Source of the DNA: a virus | Taxonomy: Duplodnaviria > Heunggongvirae > Uroviricota > Caudoviricetes | IMG/VR virus record: IMGVR_UViG_2548876853_000015 | DNA: 6,725 nt | Direction: 5' to 3' (one strand) | Shown here: positions 548-6,170 of the stretch, piece by piece | Layout: each line of letters opens with the position of its first letter | Position numbering within the stretch: the first letter of the stretch is position 1 | Notes under the pieces: generated by a model | Database searches by the model: none | What the model was told of the DNA's origin: nothing | What the model saw: only the letters and a program-made list of their open reading frames with translations | Made by a program: the position numbers and the translations under genes

Positions 548-2032
548 TCATTCATTAAGCCATGCCAGAGCTTCATCAACCTGCGCTTCGTCTTCGACGC
601 TAAGCACTTCATCCTGGGGAACATAATCCGCCAGCATAGCGAAACAATATGTATCCCAATGGTCTGGTGAGTGCAGGTTGAGTTTTTTCTTCATATCCTC
701 CTTACTCATCACCTTCCATTGACCTGCGGAGTTAATCCCTACAGGGATTTTCGACGCTTCCTCAATAGTTTCATTACCCTTATCCAGTCTCATACGACCA
801 GATTTTACGGCCTCTGCGGCTTGAACGTTGGCATAAGCACGTTTATCAAAGTACAGGCTCTTATCTTCACGGCTATGCATCTTTTTACCCCAGCGTATGC
901 GCTGTACGGTAATACCATAATACTCGTACATCAGATCCGCCGTTGCTTTACCCAGGCCATCGCCGTCTATCGCTATGGTGATATTTGGGAATCGCTCAGG
1001 ATTACATTCTGCGAAAATTTTGGCGGCAAGCTGCGTTTCTGTAACGTCTGTGTATTCCAGCATTCGATAGTTGATTACACGGCGTTTATTTCGCTGGCCG
1101 GACACCATCATGATATTGATAACGGACTTATCCCGTCCCGTACCACCAGCAACGTCCACACATGCAAGCCAGCCCCATCCTTTTGCAATCTTGACTTTCC
1201 GCCGCGTTGCACGTTCAACCTCATCACGTCCAAGAAGGAAGCCATCCTGTGATTTAGGGAATAGGCCGCGTACCTTAATCATGTACATAGGGTTATCACG
1301 CCCGCCGTACTCCGCCAGCTTCATTTTGATAAATGCTGGCGTTACCAACGGTGATTCCTCACTGTTAAGCGTGATCGCCGTATAAACGCCATCAGGGTTA
1401 CCAGGACGCTTGGCCAGTTTATGGTGTGTATCGTAGAAATAGCCGCTTGGGCGTGTAGGCTGTGACAGTAATAAGATGCGGTTATCCTGTCCGGTAAGAG
1501 CACCGGTGATGATACCGAAAGCTCTATCACTGACACCGGAGGCTTCATCGATAATATACAGAAGATGATCTGCGTGTTCACCGGCAAGAGCTTCTTCACT
1601 TCCCAGACGAAAGCCCTTCGGTACTACAGTCCATACACCTTTACCAGTAACCTCATAGAAAGCGGTTTCTGTCAGAACAAAATAATCAGCAAGCCATGGA
1701 AAACGGCTGGTGGCAGTAGCCCAGTTTATCTTGATGTACTTGAATATACCGGTCATTACCTGCTGAATTTTGTTCGCAACGATAATGGCGCGGGCACCGG
1801 GATACATGATTATGAACAACATGATCATGATAGAAGTCATGTCTGATTTCCCGGTACCGTGACCAGACGAAACAGATGTCTTGCTACCCTGTTCCTGCAC
1901 AGACTCAATAATCAGATCCTGCTGCCAGGTAGGTGTTTTGCCGAACAAAACATCAGCGGCCGCAATCCAGTCATAACGATATAGCGCCACCAGCTCGCGC
2001 CAACGTGGATCCGTTACGCAACTTCTGGCCAT
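548..2032 (-). CDS. pacB: Terminase large subunit (P1 PacB-type), 494 aa
   Basis: 494-aa ORF with a Walker-A-like ATPase motif (SSGHGTGKS). Start ATG overlaps the pacA stop by one nt (TAATG). Size and position match the recalled P1 PacB (494 aa). Confidence 0.9.
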
Positions 2033-3225
2033 TAATCATCATCCCCGTATAGCTTGCGGGTAACTTCTTCGTCTTCCTCCTCGTCTTCGTCCAGGTCTTG
2101 TTCCAGCCATGGGTCGTTTGATACACCTTCAGTATCAACATCTCCATAACCGCCTGTATCAACGATATCGGCGATTTCTTCCCTACGCTGCTCAATCCAC
2201 AATGCGGCATCGGCGCGGCGGTTGGCGGCCCGTTCTCGCGCAACTTTGTCCAGATCTTCAAGAGAAGGGCCACCGACGGCTGTTTGCCTTTCCTCATCAT
2301 CGGTATTGGTCTTAGGAGCACGCAGATCGGCTTTGATTTGCTCCAGCATCAGGGGCGGAACTTTCCCACCATGCGCCTCGATAAATTCAGCTGCTTCCAG
2401 CACTGACCAGTTATTTTCACGCTTTCGTTCGTATGCCAGCTTAACAATGCCAGCTTGCCCCATAGACAAAGCGTGCTTTTCCGCCTCCCGGCTTTCTTTT
2501 CGATAGTTATTCCGGATGCTGTAAATGGTGTTGATCAGACTGCTTATCTGCGCGGAACAGCTGTTTAGCATGCTCGCGATACGGTATTCAGGCGGAGTGC
2601 CTTCATCATCGTCTTTTTGCTGATCGCGCATTTCCTGCACCAGGCGAATACACGTATCCCTGGCGTTCTCCAGCATAAGGAGATGAGAAAGAGACTTTTC
2701 AAGAAGAGTGGTTTCCAGAACATCGGCCCCGGACCGACGCAACATAGCGCGTGCGGCCTTCCGCGCTTCAACGTTATCTATCAGGTAATCGCCAGCTTCG
2801 AATTCAAAGCGTTCACCATCATCATCCAGGGTGTCGCGTTCCAGACGATCACGCAAGGTCCGGTGGGCGCGGGTGATCACGTCATGATCATCTGAACGAT
2901 CATTTATGCGCTTATTTTGGCGCTTCGCATTCTCGACTGCGGCACTGACAACGGCATTAACTCTCTGTTTTTCCGCTATTTCAGCCGCAATATGATCACC
3001 TGCATGTTGATCATTAGAGTGATCAATGATCATGCTTTTTAGTGGCTTCCTGACTGGCTTATTTGGCTTGCGGCTGTCCGCAGTCCTGGTGTCTTCTTTG
3101 AAGGCACGGAGATAACGACGTGCGGTATTAGGGTTAAGATTAAACTCGGCGGCATACTGTGCGATGGTGTAACCACCATCTCGCGCCAGGCGAGCAAAAT
3201 TCTTCTTGTGATCGTCCCAGGTCAC
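2032..3225 (-). CDS. pacA: Terminase small / pac-recognition subunit (P1 PacA-type), 397 aa, GTG start
   Basis: 397-aa ORF with an N-terminal helix-turn-helix-like segment ([27 protein letters not shown]) and a highly acidic C-terminus. GTG start at 3225 with SD AAGGAAG 5 nt upstream and an in-frame stop immediately upstream. The pac hexamer clusters lie inside its 5' third, as in P1. Confidence 0.88.
2874..3032. other. pac packaging site: two clusters of TGATCA/G hexamers (Dam GATC sites) flanking a roughly 90-bp hexamer-free core
   Basis: Hexamers at 2874-2879, 2885-2890 and 2897-2902 (the last as cgatca, i.e. TGATCG on the other strand), then 2993-2998, 3008-3013, 3020-3025 and 3027-3032. 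This 3 + 4 arrangement over about 160 bp matches the recalled P1 pac site (about 162 bp, seven hexamers). One further cgatca lies at 2846-2851. Confidence 0.75.
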
Positions 3226-3310: not shown

Positions 3311-3763
3311 TCAGATACGTGCGGATGTGGCATTACCGTAATGACGGTGCTGACGGGCCACCTTATTGAAAAGTTGACGCGCCATTACCCAAGGCTGGTG
3401 CTCCCGGCGTTCCTTTTCGTCCTGCGTCATATAGAGTTCGTTCTGGAGTTTTTCATCAAACCGGCGCGGAGCGCGGCTACGGCGAAAGAATTCAGGATTC
3501 AGAGAGTGGATCTGAAATCTACGTGGGCGTGTACTGTCATCAATCAAAACAGACGAATACTTAGACACAGCGATAGCCTTTAAGCGCAGATAAACATCGC
3601 GCTTATCGACATCCAGATGCGGGTATTCCTTTTCAAGAATTGCTGCGAGTTCTTTCGCTGATAGAAGAGATTTAGTGCGGATCATGTAATCCGCAATCTC
3701 GTACGATGTTATTCGTGAGTGATTTATTTCCATGAAGTGGCGTCCCTGCCAGTTAAGTAACAT
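3311..3763 (-). CDS. lpa: Candidate late-promoter activator (P1 Lpa / gene 10-like), 150 aa, basic
   Basis: 150-aa ORF immediately upstream of pacA, the position I recall for P1 lpa. SD GGTGA lies 4 nt before the ATG at 3763. Assignment is by synteny and size, not by a recognised motif; an alternative start exists at 3733 (MEINHSR...). Confidence 0.55.
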   Translation of the reverse strand: MLLNWQGRHFMEINHSRITSYEIADYMIRTKSLLSAKELAAILEKEYPHLDVDKRDVYLRLKAIAVSKYSSVLIDDSTRPRRFQIHSLNPEFFRRSRAPRRFDEKLQNELYMTQDEKERREHQPWVMARQLFNKVARQHRHYGNATSARI

Positions 3764-3808: not shown

Positions 3809-3850
3809 ATAATACCCTCGATTAAAGAAATAGCAACACATTAGAGCAAT
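3809..3850 (-). promoter_or_regulatory. Candidate sigma70 promoter for lpa with an adjacent C1-operator-like element
   Basis: Minus strand: ATTGCTCTAAT (3850..3840) matches the first 11 positions of the recalled C1 operator consensus (13 of 17 over the full 17-mer). Then -35 TTGCTA (3836..3831), 16-nt spacer, -10 TATTAT (3814..3809). Consistent with lpa being C1-controlled in P1. Confidence 0.45.
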
Positions 3851-3851
3851 T

Positions 3852-4895
3852 TTATCTAACGCTCGACGAGTGACTTGTGATAGCGCCGACTCCAAGCGCG
3901 TAATCAAAGAACAATCGTTGATGCATCGCCAGCCTACCGTGCGTCTTCTCCCAATTATCGCGGTCACGCTCAATATCACGCTGGCATGACTGGCACAGAG
4001 GAATTGCGTAAATGTCATGCGCGCATAATCGACTATGACGAACGATATAAGGCGTAATGTGAGCGCCAGCTCCCGCCGCTCCACACCCACAGCATGGACG
4101 GGAAGCAACAAAGTCCATGTACTCAGGTAATTTTAGCGATTGCAGTTTTGGTATTTTGAAATGCGCCATGCCAGGGTCGGAGTCAACATCCACAGGGCAT
4201 ACTTTTGCACGCATCGGCGCGGCGCGTTCTTCCATCATCTGAACATATGCTGTAGCGCGATCGTCATACGGGCGAATATCCGCCTCTTTCAGAGGTCCGC
4301 TATCCTGCGTTGCGGCTTTCATCTTATTTATTGATATACGGCAAACTTCTTCCGGCATCAGGTGCATCATGTTGCGCATGAAAGCCCACCAGCACAGTTC
4401 CTGAATACTTAAATCATGGCCATCTGAAAACCCCATTTCCTGACGGGCGACATCCAGGATCCAGTTAACGCGATTATTATGCAGCGTTTCTTTCAGCTCA
4501 TTAAAACCACGCATCCGGTAATGGTTATCGTGATGCCAGCACAACAACACCGCGCTATTGTCTCGTTCTGCGTGGACAATATGGTTGTCACACCAGCTAC
4601 GATCTGCGGCCTGGCATTGCCCCTCTTTCCTGCGCAACCACGCCACCAGCGCGTCAATTCCACCAATACGGCGAAACAGTTCATCGCTGTTAAAAAACGG
4701 CTGCAACGCCTCATTTGTTGCCATAGTTTGCTCGGAAACAACGAGGCCGTCGTCCATGTGCTCGATTAACTCACGCGGCACCGGCTCCATAATAAATTTA
4801 CGGCCAGCCTCCACCAGCTTTCTGACTTCCTGATCCACTTTGAATGTGGCGACGCCAAGCTCTTTTTGTACAAAGGGAGTAATTACGGCTTTCAC
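3852..4895 (-). CDS. Post-doc region protein, 347 aa, with a Cys/His-rich C-terminal module (possible zinc-binding HNH-like fold); function unknown
   Basis: 347-aa ORF with GTG start at 4895 (SD AAGGTG upstream). The C-terminus carries CCGCG ... H ... H ... CAH ... CQSC spacing typical of zinc-ribbon / HNH-like motifs. The position between doc and lpa corresponds to the pdc (post-doc) genes of P1; a resemblance to DUF968-type prophage proteins is a recollection, not verified. Confidence 0.65.
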
Positions 4896-4922
4896 ATCAC
4901 ACCTTTCATCACTGATTGGGCT

Positions 4923-5102
4923 TTATCTGCTGCCCGGCATTCTCTGTTTAAGCACAACCATTTCCTGACGGCATAACACAGCAATAGCAGTCCTGGCTCT
5001 AATTTGCTTACCAACCAGGTATTGCTTTACCTCGCGGCGACTCACGCCATCAAGAAGCATCTTTAACGCTTCACGGGACAATTTGTTGTATTTGCGTGCC
5101 AT
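4923..5102 (-). CDS. Small basic protein (59 aa) immediately downstream of doc, possible helix-turn-helix; post-doc region
   Basis: ATG at 5102-5100 lies 4 nt after the doc stop, and its SD (GGAG, 7-nt spacer) is embedded in the last doc codons, suggesting co-transcription with phd-doc. The track start at 5123 would overlap doc and lacks an SD. Protein MARKYNKLSREALKMLLDGVSRREVKQYLVGK... is Arg/Lys-rich. Confidence 0.5.
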   Translation of the reverse strand: MARKYNKLSREALKMLLDGVSRREVKQYLVGKQIRARTAIAVLCRQEMVVLKQRMPGSR

Positions 5103-5106
5103 TAAT

Positions 5107-5487
5107 CTACTCCGCAGAACCATACAATCTACGTAACGTGGCGGCGACAGAAGATACAGATATCTCGCCAGTCGCAGCCCCTACGGTAAGGTCTGCCAGT
5201 TCAGGTGAATCAAATACCTGCACCCCGTTACGGCGTAGAAATAGCAGCGCACTGTTTAGCGCGGTACGCTTATTGGCATCATTGAATATATGCCCTCTCG
5301 CAGTAGCAACCAGGTAGGTTGCGGAGATTTCGAAAAGGTCGGTGATCTCTTCGTAGGCAACTCTGGCCTGAACTCTCCCGATAATGGCCTCTGCCCTACC
5401 CGGATCTGACATTCCCGGCAGGCCGCCGTAGCGGCTTATATTCGCATCATGAAGCGCAATAAGTTCTTCCGGTGATATATGCCTCAT
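5107..5487 (-). CDS. doc: Doc toxin (Fic/Doc family kinase that targets EF-Tu), 126 aa
   Basis: Fic-type motif HIFNDANKR is present. The sequence matches my recollection of P1 Doc nearly residue-for-residue. Start ATG overlaps the phd stop by 1 nt (TAATG). Confidence 0.95.
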
Positions 5488-5708
5488 TATCGGTTAACCA
5501 GTTCCTTGTTGGTGGAGTCCAGGGTGTCAAACAGGGATGCAAATTCAGCATCCAGCGCCGCTTTTTTGTAGGCTTCGAAAGTAGCCTTGCTGACAATTAC
5601 TGCTGGCTCACGGCCTCTGCGGGTGATTTCAACCTCTTCCCCGGCTTCAACATTGTTAAGCACTTCAGAAAGGTTGCCACGCGCGGTACGGAAGTTAATG
5701 GATTGCAT
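5487..5708 (-). CDS. phd: Phd antitoxin (prevent-host-death), 73 aa
   Basis: [49 protein letters not shown]... matches recalled P1 Phd. I place the start at the ATG at 5708 (SD GAGGTG upstream) rather than the track's GTG at 5714. Overlaps doc. Confidence 0.93.
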
Positions 5709-5716
5709 AAACACCT

Positions 5717-5780: not shown

Positions 5781-6170
5781 TTAAATGATCGGACAATCAT
5801 CAAACTCCCCACATCGGGCATCATTGATGACATGAGTGATCACACCAAAAACAGCATTACTACCCGTGTAACCATCGTCATCTACTGGTAACGCCTCTTT
5901 CTTCCCGGTGCTTAAATCCTCCAGGTGCTGGCGCGGATACTTCCTGTATCTCTTTATGCGATATTCACCCTCCATAGCGCAGACAAGCAGCGAACCATCA
6001 ACCGGAGTAAGCGAGGAATCAACCACCAGCAAAGCACCCTGCAATATTCCCTCACGGTGATGGCTGTCTGCCGCCCGCATGAAGTAGGTCGCTGATGGAT
6101 GCCTGATTAGTTGCTGATCAAGAGAAATTCTGCTTTCAACATAATCCGCCGCAGGAGAAGGGAAGCCCAT
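5781..6170 (-). CDS. humD: UmuD'-like translesion-synthesis accessory protein (P1 HumD-type), 129 aa, S24 peptidase-like fold without the N-terminal cleavable arm
   Basis: Strong similarity to recalled E. coli UmuD from the GFPSPAADYVE region onward (HPSATYF, VVDS, FGVITHV blocks). The protein begins about where UmuD is processed to UmuD'. SD GAGGTG upstream. Confidence 0.9.
   Translation of the reverse strand: MGFPSPAADYVESRISLDQQLIRHPSATYFMRAADSHHREGILQGALLVVDSSLTPVDGSLLVCAMEGEYRIKRYRKYPRQHLEDLSTGKKEALPVDDDGYTGSNAVFGVITHVINDARCGEFDDCPII

What the first reader, a model, noticed from the sequence alone, without database searches (positions are those of the whole stretch)
3852..4895. 347-aa post-doc protein with a C-terminal Cys/His cluster suggestive of a zinc-binding nuclease-like module
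The C-terminal roughly 70 residues contain CCGCG, two His, CAH and CQSC in an arrangement reminiscent of HNH/zinc-ribbon folds, preceded by a large domain of unknown function. It sits between the addiction module and the late activator. Function is, as far as I know, not established, making it the most plausible place for uncharacterised biology in this window.
Basis: partly seen in the sequence, partly recalled or inferred. Interest (0 to 1): 0.5.

Follow-up and report, generated by a model that had tools for sequence, protein, structure and literature searches.

The report
P1 PdcB: degenerate double HNH-like protein
The flagged gene is phage P1's non-essential PdcB, whose C-terminal Cys/His cluster is a zinc-stabilised HNH-type nuclease fold (already filed as DUF968) that in P1-like phages has lost most canonical catalytic histidines yet stays strongly conserved, and it sits behind a second, unannotated HNH-like zinc module.

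Summary

New here:
1. The four zinc cysteines are conserved, but the canonical catalytic histidines are not. In the PdcB clade H305 is Q, H309 is E/A/S/V/R, and the general-base His279 is H only in P1-type members (R or Y even in some near-identical relatives). The module still has dN/dS of about 0.07.
2. Residues 57-195, covered by no Pfam or NCBIfam model, fold confidently (pLDDT 92) into a second HNH-like zinc module.
3. The conserved neighbour is the late activator (Lpa, or Q in lambdoid prophages), not the addiction module.

Most likely PdcB is a non-catalytic or non-canonical DNA-binding accessory protein. Function remains untested. Interest is modest.

The parts
3852..4895 (-). pdcB coding sequence (347 aa, GTG start, TAA stop)
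   Evidence: ORF list. 99.4% nt identity to RCS47 pdcB and 96.4% to P1 pdcB. P1 annotation. dN/dS 0.105 among 30 distinct P1-type alleles.
4728..4895 (-). Residues 1-56: N-terminal arm, modelled with low confidence (two short strands and a helix)
   Evidence: pLDDT about 47-63 in the full-length AF2 model. 78% mean identity within the PdcB clade.
4311..4727 (-). Residues 57-195: unannotated second HNH-like beta-beta-alpha zinc module plus helical bundle. Includes the invariant ELCWW motif at residues 166-170.
4530..4616 (-). Residues 94-122, [29 protein letters not shown]: putative zinc ligands C94, C102, C119 and H122 bracketing the beta-hairpin
   Evidence: Translation. C94 and C119 are present in 50/50 sequences. 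Position 102 is C in 24 and H in 26. Position 122 is H in 43 and C in 7. The ligand sets are CCCH in 24, CHCH in 19 and CHCC in 7, so all 50 sequences are zinc-competent. Strands 106-111 and 114-119 and helix 120-129.
4134..4310 (-). Residues 196-254: linker region with one helix (213-230), modelled with low confidence
   Evidence: pLDDT about 44-54. Still 80% identical within the PdcB clade.
3876..4133 (-). Residues 255-340: C-terminal YbcO/Ref-like His-Me finger (the HNH half of Pfam DUF968)
3981..4094 (-). Residues 268-305: the Cys/His cluster of the finding. Zinc ligands are C268, C271, C301 and C304. H279 is the general-base position, D294 is the conserved Asp, and Q305 sits where the canonical helix His would be.
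   Evidence: Translation. Equivalences to YbcO are H279=H32, D294=D47, C301=C54, C304=C57 and Q305=H58. Conservation tables.
3809..3850 (-). C1 operator-like sequence ATTGCTCTAAT, starting 2 nt after the pdcB stop and overlapping the lpa promoter (TTGCTA-16-TATTAT)
   Evidence: Sequence. Promoter scan. P1 annotation of Olpa and Plpa at the equivalent place.
3311..3763 (-). lpa, the late promoter activator: the conserved downstream neighbour of pdcB
   Evidence: Pfam BPP1_LPA, E 3e-57. Lpa follows the pdcB homologue in 34 of 36 P1-type or divergent loci. It also follows it in the 67%- and 37%-identity relatives.
4923..5123 (-). pdcA, a small upstream ORF that overlaps the end of doc; NOT a conserved partner of pdcB
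   Evidence: ORF list. PHROG 3345 'unknown'. No homologue upstream of pdcB in L006 or L007.

Best explanation
The ORF encodes PdcB of a P1-family phage-plasmid. It is a protein built from two zinc-stabilised beta-beta-alpha (HNH / His-Me finger-like) modules.

C268, C271, C301 and C304 hold a structural zinc that staples the hairpin to the helix.

In canonical family members (YdfU-type, in lambdoid prophages between rusA and Q) this module carries a complete active site, HH...D...CxxCH..LH, and is probably a recombination or replication-associated endonuclease.

In the PdcB clade the catalytic apparatus has decayed:
- The first His of the HH pair is Ala.
- The general-base His279 is dispensable.
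- The two helix histidines are Gln305 and Glu/Ala/Ser/Val/Arg309.

The scaffold and the surrounding surface nevertheless stay under strong purifying selection. I therefore infer that PdcB works mainly as a non-catalytic (or at best weak and non-canonical) nucleic-acid-structure-binding accessory protein. It is expressed from the region just upstream of the late activator, and it is dispensable for lytic growth and for lysogeny in the laboratory.

Shown: gene identity, fold, zinc-ligand conservation, loss and relaxation of the catalytic residues, purifying selection, synteny.
Inferred: zinc binding itself, loss of nuclease activity, DNA binding, the biological role.
For: - Identity.
- Literature: DUF968 plus DUF1364 form His-Me finger group 7 (PMC5714182). 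The hairpin His of YbcO superimposes on the catalytic His (PMC4999995).
- Catalytic decay: in 103 homologues the positions equivalent to 279, 305 and 309 are H/H/H in nearly all canonical members. In the PdcB clade they are H-or-N/Q/R/gap, Q, and E/A/S/V/R.
- In IMG/VR loci, canonical members (n=44) have H in 44, 41 and 44 at these three positions. P1-type members (n=33) have H29/R2/Y1, Q31/L1 and E32.
- Constraint: dN/dS is 0.066 for the C-terminal module and 0.105 for the whole gene. Only 8 of 86 positions in the module vary among 32 P1-type proteins, and these include 279 and 305, while the zinc cysteines never vary.
- Second module.
- Dispensability: CRISPRi EOP 0.68 and a deletion survey (PMC10695390). 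pdcB::kan lysogens are viable and stable (PMC10067587; PMC10999674).
- The gene is among the 21 most conserved genes of 77 P1-like phage-plasmids (PMC9603915).
Against: - The window's own protein, like P1's, still has His279 at the general-base position, Asp294, and a Glu309/Gln305 pair that could in principle hold a divalent metal. Many His-Me finger nucleases need only one Asn or His metal ligand, so activity is not excluded for the P1 subclade.
- No coordinates were available, so zinc geometry and active-site geometry were not inspected.
- AF2 confidence for the whole chain is moderate (pLDDT 72, pTM 0.48) and the arrangement of the domains is unknown.
- Foldseek gave no significant PDB hit (best E 0.7).
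- DNA binding and the biological role are pure inference. No phenotype is known.
- The dN/dS values are pooled over non-independent pairs, without a formal test.
Confidence: 0.6

Rival explanations
1. PdcB is an active HNH endonuclease, as RefSeq and PHROGs name it. In P1-type members His279 acts as general base, and Asp294 with Glu309/Gln305 holds the metal. The enzyme nicks or cuts branched or single-stranded DNA during recombination or replication, much as P1 Ref or lambda Rap do.
For: - His279, Asp294 and the Cys4 zinc site are present in the window protein.
- 29 of 33 P1-type sequences keep His279.
- Canonical relatives have intact sites and sit beside RusA.
- Strong purifying selection on the module.
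Against: - Both helix histidines are lost in every PdcB-clade member. His279 is N/Q/R/gap in the 64-81%-identity orthologues that keep the same pdcB-lpa-pacAB context.
- His279 is R or Y in 3 near-identical P1-type alleles.
- Positions 279 and 305 are among only 8 variable sites of 86 in the module.
- No nuclease activity has been reported.
Confidence: 0.25
2. PdcB is a regulatory or timing factor of the early-to-late switch. It would use its zinc modules to bind DNA, RNA or a protein partner (Lpa, the pacase, RNA polymerase). That would explain why full-length family members are almost always encoded immediately upstream of a late activator, whether Lpa or the unrelated Q proteins.
For: - Lpa lies 89-146 nt downstream in 34 of 36 P1-type or divergent loci.
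- A recognisable Q is found in 33 of 44 canonical loci. In the plus-strand downstream scan it often overlaps or lies within a few nt of the DUF968 stop.
- In Qin, ydfU is followed by ydfT.
- pdcB-lpa adjacency is kept at 37-38% identity.
- Catalytic residues are dispensable while the fold is conserved.
Against: - Gene adjacency may simply reflect the architecture of early operons, where the late activator is the last early gene.
- lpa has its own C1-controlled promoter directly after the pdcB stop.
- CRISPRi knock-down of pdcB leaves plating at 0.68, whereas lpa is essential.
- There is no evidence of any interaction.
Confidence: 0.1
3. PdcB belongs functionally to the phd-doc addiction module ('post-doc'), for example as a modulator of Doc or of plasmid maintenance.
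For: - phd-doc-pdcA-pdcB are contiguous, with no predicted terminator between doc and pdcB.
- 33 of 36 P1-type loci carry phd, doc and pdcA upstream.
- Qin shows relBE-hokD-rem-ydfU.
Against: - In the 67%-identity relatives (L006, L040) and the 38%-identity relative (L043), neither phd/doc nor pdcA is found upstream, yet pdcB-lpa-pacA persists.
- None of the 44 canonical loci has Phd or Doc.
- pdcB::kan lysogens are stable.
- No PADLOC match.
Confidence: 0.03
4. The Cys/His cluster is a chance feature of a spurious or decaying ORF.
For: The gene is non-essential in every assay so far.
Against: - dN/dS is 0.105 over 30 distinct alleles.
- Full-length homologues extend down to about 20-25% identity with invariant Cys positions.
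- Confident domain models.
- 133 representative clusters in an exhaustive search.
Confidence: 0.01

Closest known systems
Pfam DUF968 (PF06147) / E. coli Qin prophage YdfU; His-Me finger group 7 of Jablonska et al. 2017
   Same: PdcB matches the DUF968 model end to end (171 bits). YdfU (349 aa) has the same overall layout: the N-terminal CQ...H...LCWHC motif, ELSWW at the position of the ELCWW motif, and a C-terminal CxxC...CxxxH module. Both lie immediately upstream of a late-gene activator.
   Different: YdfU-type proteins keep the full HH...D...H..LH active site. The PdcB clade has A-H/x...D...Q..E/x. The context is Lpa and pacAB in a plasmid-prophage rather than RusA and Q in lambdoid prophages. 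Neither protein has been characterised experimentally.
YbcO (DUF1364, PDB 3g27), DLP12 prophage putative nuclease
   Different: YbcO is a 96-aa single-domain protein with His58 after its CxxC, where PdcB has Gln305. PdcB is 347 aa with an extra N-terminal HNH-like module. No Pfam DUF1364 hit was returned for PdcB.
P1 Ref (RecA-dependent HNH nuclease, PDB 3plw, Pfam RecA_dep_nuc)
   Different: Only 9% identity. Ref is a characterised active nuclease (established knowledge), whereas PdcB lacks the helix histidines. No Pfam RecA_dep_nuc hit for PdcB itself.
Orf-HNH fusions described for Gram-positive DUF968 proteins (phiETA Orf20; Curtis et al. 2014, PMC4118853)
   Same: Both are filed under DUF968 and share the C-terminal zinc-finger HNH motif.
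Lambda NinG/Rap (HNH-type branch-specific endonuclease in the nin region)
   Same: NinG belongs to the same superfamily and occupies a similar map position upstream of Q. A recombination role has been proposed for group 7 by analogy.
   Different: No sequence match. NinG was not found in any of the 44 canonical DUF968 loci, which is compatible with the two being alternatives but does not prove it.

Membership tests
Pfam DUF968 (PF06147) | Score above the curated gathering threshold of the family HMM | tested here: met
   171 bits against a cut-off of 27.8. Residues 161-337 match profile positions 1-171 of 171.
His-Me finger / HNH superfamily | Beta-beta-alpha core fold (hairpin followed by a helix) | tested here: met
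   [not shown]
His-Me finger / HNH superfamily | Structural zinc site made of two Cys pairs flanking the hairpin (in the zinc-containing subgroups) | tested here: met
   C268, C271, C301 and C304 are present. Ligand sets across 50 homologues are CCCC in 25, CCCH in 15 and CCCD in 5. The cysteines never vary in 32 P1-type proteins. Actual metal binding was not tested.
His-Me finger / HNH superfamily | Catalytic general-base His on the first strand of the hairpin | tested here: inconclusive
   His279 aligns with YbcO H32 and is present in the window protein. Within the PdcB clade the position is N/Q/R/gap in 64-81%-identity orthologues, and R or Y in 3 of 33 P1-type alleles.
His-Me finger / HNH superfamily | Metal-binding His or Asn on the helix, directly after the second Cys pair | tested here: not met
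   Canonical H305 and H309 (41/44 and 44/44) are Q305 and E309 in the window protein. Across the PdcB clade they are Q and E/A/S/V/R.
His-Me finger / HNH superfamily | Metal-dependent nuclease activity | not testable with these tools
   No biochemical data were found for PdcB, YdfU or YbcO.
YbcO / DUF1364 | Detectable homology to the YbcO sequence and structure | tested here: met
   [not shown]
Phage Orf (NinB) family fused to HNH | Orf-like domain in front of the HNH | tested here: not met
   [not shown]
Second (N-terminal) HNH-like module, proposed here | Beta-beta-alpha fold with four zinc-competent ligands in HNH topology | tested here: met
   [not shown]
Second (N-terminal) HNH-like module, proposed here | Sequence-level link to a known HNH family, or a conserved hairpin His | tested here: not met
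   No Pfam hit at E up to 10. No PDB profile hit. hhalign against the C-terminal module or against YbcO gives probability below 1%. Positions 108-111 carry no conserved His.
phd-doc type II toxin-antitoxin module (as an accessory gene) | Conserved genetic linkage to the toxin-antitoxin pair | tested here: not met
   phd/doc are absent upstream of pdcB in L006, L040 and L043 and in all 44 canonical loci.
Known anti-phage defence systems (PADLOC) | Match to any defence-system protein model | tested here: not met
   No hit at E up to 0.1 for PdcB or PdcA.

The most novel reading that the evidence does not exclude
The PdcB/YdfU family are tandem His-Me finger proteins. A previously unannotated, non-catalytic N-terminal HNH-like zinc module is paired with a YbcO/Ref-like C-terminal HNH. 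In P1-like phage-plasmids the second module has also become a pseudo-nuclease. The protein has been kept under strong purifying selection as a purely binding factor for DNA structures or for a partner protein, tied to the late switch and packaging block (pdcB-lpa-pacA-pacB). That would be a natural case of a phage recombination nuclease re-purposed into a non-enzymatic role.
Probability: 0.3. Interest if true: 0.45.

Novelty: new variant of a known kind. Interest (0 to 1): 0.3.

Why it matters
PdcB is one of the most conserved genes of P1-like phage-plasmids, which are tools of bacterial genetics and vehicles of resistance genes, yet it has no known function. Databases label it 'HNH endonuclease'. 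This analysis indicates that the label is probably misleading for the P1 clade. The zinc scaffold is kept, but the canonical catalytic histidines are lost or free to vary. The half of the protein that looked unknown is a second HNH-like zinc module.

This gives concrete, cheap experiments: zinc content, nuclease versus binding assays, H279 and Q305 mutants, and comparison with YdfU. It also provides a natural active/inactive pair for studying how phage nucleases turn into binding proteins.

It does not open a long-standing question, and the basic fold assignment was already published, so the significance is modest.

Tried and rejected
- Sequence and profile searches against PDB sequences, using the protein, the full-length alignment and the N-terminal alignment, found nothing.
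- NCBIfam and PADLOC gave nothing meaningful.
- The published idea that DUF968 is an Orf-like domain plus HNH was tested against the Orf homologue YbcN and rejected for this protein.
- An internal duplication (N-terminal module related to the C-terminal one) is not detectable by sequence.
- A profile search with the N-terminal module returned only partial or truncated members of the same family, with no new architectures and no bridge to annotated HNH families.
- Long proteins that share residues 1 to about 220 and continue into tail-fibre, tip-attachment or portal domains were judged likely chimeric or mis-assembled ORFs and were not used.
- pdcA as an obligate partner was rejected: there is no homologue upstream in the divergent loci.
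- Co-occurrence of lambda nin genes (NinB, NinE-I) and of YbcO and YbcN with canonical DUF968 genes was zero in 44 loci (NinC was seen in 4). This relies on single-sequence phmmer sensitivity, so mutual exclusivity is only suggestive.
- The P1 genome paper (PMC523184) is not held in the library.
- One literature query failed because a term was too short.

Full report
**1. What is at the coordinates**

The window is a stretch of a P1-family phage-plasmid, read in the opposite orientation to the P1 reference. All its long genes lie on the minus strand:

| Gene | Window coordinates |
|---|---|
| pacB | 548-2032 |
| pacA | 2032-3225 |
| lpa | 3311-3763 |
| the 347-aa ORF | 3852-4895 |
| pdcA | 4923-5123 |
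| doc | 5107-5487 |
| phd | 5487-5714 |
| humD | 5781-6170 |

The plus-strand reading of 3852-4895 is full of stops. At the DNA level the ORF is 99.4% identical to pdcB of phage RCS47 and 96.4% identical to pdcB of P1. GenBank calls it 'PdcB, unknown protein function' and RefSeq calls it 'HNH endonuclease'.

**2. The C-terminal cluster is a zinc-stapled His-Me finger, and this was already known**

- Residues 161-337 match Pfam DUF968 end to end (E 3e-50, 171 bits, cut-off 27.8).
- The whole protein matches PHROG 96 'HNH endonuclease'.
- Jablonska et al. 2017 place DUF968 together with DUF1364/YbcO (PDB 3g27) in group 7 of the His-Me finger superfamily (PMC5714182).
- Kaur & Subramanian 2016 showed that the hairpin His of YbcO superimposes on the catalytic His of His-Me nucleases (PMC4999995).

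I tested this on the protein itself. A profile of the C-terminal domain from 49 homologues aligns to YbcO with 85% probability and E 6e-6. The alignment equates H279 with YbcO H32, D294 with D47, C301 and C304 with C54 and C57, and Q305 with H58.

**3. Which Cys and His residues are conserved**

In the 50-sequence alignment, which reaches down to about 20-25% identity:

| Residue | Conservation |
|---|---|
| C268 | 50/50 |
| C271 | 45/50 |
| C301 | 49/50 |
| position 304 | C 25, H 15, D 5 |
| H293 | 50/50 |
| D294 | at least 90% |
| C269 | 16/50 |
| H287 | 4/50 |
| C291 | 14/50 (PdcB clade only) |

The four-ligand zinc site is thus the conserved core.

**4. The catalytic residues have decayed in the P1 clade**

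Canonical family members read CxxCG..DDP-H-H-(I/L)...K-A-H-D...PLC-R-x-(C/H)-H-x-x-L-H. I aligned 103 homologues to an HMM of the domain and analysed 80 loci from IMG/VR.

| Position | Canonical loci (n=44) | P1-type sequences (n=33; one truncated, so counts sum to 32) | 64-81%-identity orthologues |
|---|---|---|---|
| 279 | H in 44 | H 29, R 2, Y 1 | N, Q, R or gap |
| 305 | H in 41 | Q 31, L 1 | Q |
| 309 | H in 44 | E 32 | E, A, S, V or R |

In addition, the first His of the HH pair is Ala in the PdcB clade wherever that residue is present. The intermediates behave as follows:

| Sequence | Identity to the window protein | Catalytic positions |
|---|---|---|
| P0020 | 37% | also degenerate (gap at 279, Y305, R309) |
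| P0058 | 38% | also degenerate (gap at 279, A305, E309) |
| L043 | 38% | keeps H305 only (gap at 279, K309) |

The module is nevertheless not decaying as a whole. Among 30 distinct P1-type alleles, dN/dS is 0.066 for residues 255-340, 0.089 for residues 57-195 and 0.105 for the whole gene. Mean amino-acid identity within the PdcB clade is as high in the module (0.78) as elsewhere in the protein (0.71-0.80). Only 8 of its 86 positions vary among 32 P1-type proteins. Those 8 include 279 and 305, whereas the zinc cysteines never vary.

The simplest reading is that the scaffold and its surface are needed but canonical catalysis is not. Activity of the P1 subclade cannot be excluded, because H279, D294 and E309/Q305 are all present there.

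**5. The 'unknown' front half contains a second HNH-like zinc module**

The alignment shows invariant C94-Q95, C119, N141 and an ELCWW motif at residues 166-170. Position 102 swaps between C (24) and H (26), and position 122 between H (43) and C (7). Every one of the 50 sequences has a zinc-competent quartet: CCCH, CHCH or CHCC.

Residues 57-195 modelled on their own give pLDDT 91.9 and pTM 0.85. The hairpin (106-111 and 114-119) is followed by helix 120-129, so the ligands have the same topology as in HNH domains.

No sequence method supports the link:
- No Pfam or NCBIfam model covers residues 1-160.
- There is no PDB profile hit.
- hhalign against the C-terminal module or against YbcO gives probability below 1%.
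- A profile search returned only partial or truncated members of the same family.
- The hairpin has no conserved His, so this module is probably non-catalytic across the whole family.

The published description of DUF968 as an 'Orf-like domain + HNH' (PMC4118853) does not hold for this protein.

**6. Genomic context**

In P1-type loci the order is phd-doc-pdcA-pdcB-lpa-pacA-pacB. The lpa gene begins 89 nt after the pdcB stop. A C1 operator-like ATTGCTCTAAT begins 2 nt after the pdcB stop.

The addiction module is not the conserved neighbour. In 67%-identity relatives the order is DUF6884 - 85-aa ORF - pdcB - lpa - pacA - pacB - c1, with no phd/doc called upstream. At 37-38% identity pdcB is still followed by lpa.

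Canonical relatives sit in lambdoid prophages at the end of the early or replication block:
- Dam-RusA-KilA-N-DUF968-Q in Yersinia.
- relBE-hokD-rem-ydfU-ydfT(Q) in E. coli Qin.
- Among the 44 canonical loci, a recognisable Q is present in 33 and RusA in 31. In the downstream scan Q often overlaps or abuts the DUF968 stop.
- NinG, NinB/Orf, YbcO and YbcN were found in none of the 44.

pdcA has no homologue upstream of pdcB in the divergent loci. There is no PADLOC match.

**7. Experimental record**

- pdcB is non-essential for P1vir plating: CRISPRi EOP 0.68, and non-essential in a deletion survey (PMC10695390).
- pdcB::kan prophages are recovered and form stable lysogens, and the gene is used as a neutral insertion site (PMC10067587; PMC10999674).
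- It is transcribed during lytic growth (bioRxiv 10.64898/2025.12.28.696737).
- It is one of 21 extremely conserved genes in 77 P1-like phage-plasmids (PMC9603915).
- No biochemistry was found for PdcB, YdfU or YbcO.

**8. Interpretation**

Best supported (confidence about 0.6): PdcB is a double HNH-like zinc protein derived from a YdfU-type phage nuclease. Its C-terminal His-Me finger has lost the canonical active site in the P1 lineage and now serves a conserved, non-essential, probably nucleic-acid-binding role.

Rivals:
- An active, non-canonical nuclease in the P1 subclade (about 0.25).
- A factor of the late switch (about 0.1).
- An accessory of phd-doc (about 0.03).
- A spurious ORF (about 0.01).

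The family is small: 133 representative clusters among 1.84 billion proteins.

**9. Verdict**

The new points are the decay of the catalytic residues under continued purifying selection, the unannotated second module, and the conserved link to the late activator rather than to the addiction module. This is a new variant of a known kind, of modest interest (0.3). Function remains untested.

Noticed in passing
[not shown]
   Followed up: yes
window 5102-5123 (minus strand), start of pdcA: The annotated pdcA start (ATG at 5123) overlaps the end of doc by 17 nt. The PHROG 3345 profile aligns only from residue 8, and there is an in-frame ATG at 5102, 4 nt after the doc stop. The real product may therefore be 59 aa rather than 66.
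   Followed up: partly
window 3809-3850 (minus strand): A C1 operator-like ATTGCTCTAAT starts 2 nt after the pdcB stop codon and overlaps a TTGCTA-16-TATTAT promoter for lpa. No terminator-like site lies between doc and lpa on this strand. The only minus-strand terminator hit in the scanned region lies inside doc.
   Followed up: partly
window 2846-2902 and 2993-3032, inside pacA: Two clusters of four TGATCR (Dam-site) hexamers flank the position equivalent to the P1 pac cleavage site. The window holds 26 matches against 8.7 expected, and none of 200 shuffles reached 26. This is the known P1 pac site architecture.
   Followed up: no
L016, L028, L020 and L025 (IMG/VR P1-type loci), codons 279 and 305 of pdcB: Natural alleles at least 97% identical to the window carry H279R (CGC, two loci), H279Y (TAC) or Q305L. 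These are substitutions at the two canonical catalytic positions, in a module where only 8 of 86 residues vary at all.
   Followed up: yes
L003 (E. coli K-12 Qin prophage) 10490-13873: Qin has the order relB-relE-hokD-rem-ydfU-ydfT(Q). That is toxin-antitoxin genes, a small ORF, a DUF968 gene and a late activator, which mirrors phd-doc-pdcA-pdcB-lpa in P1. The toxin-antitoxin part of the parallel is not general: none of the 44 canonical loci has Phd or Doc.
   Followed up: partly
L043 (IMGVR_UViG_2871745582_000001, 94-kb contig) 4001-4981: A 38%-identity PdcB relative on a P1-sized contig is followed by an Lpa homologue, and by PacA about 2.3 kb further on. It keeps the helix His305 but lacks residue 279 and has K309. 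It looks like an evolutionary intermediate between canonical and P1-type active sites.
   Followed up: partly
proteins P0083, P0112, P0113, P0072, P0086 and P0170: Metagenome-derived proteins share the first 120-300 residues with PdcB/YdfU and then continue into tail-fibre, tip-attachment protein J, portal or glycine-rich domains. They are probably chimeric assemblies or fused ORF calls rather than real architectures.
   Followed up: partly
L006 (Klebsiella-type P1-like contig) 3984-4989: In 67%-identity P1-like elements the genes upstream of pdcB are a DUF6884 protein (253 aa) and an 85-aa ORF, in place of phd-doc-pdcA. The region upstream of pdcB is therefore a swap point for cargo, while pdcB-lpa-pacAB-c1 stays fixed.
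   Followed up: partly
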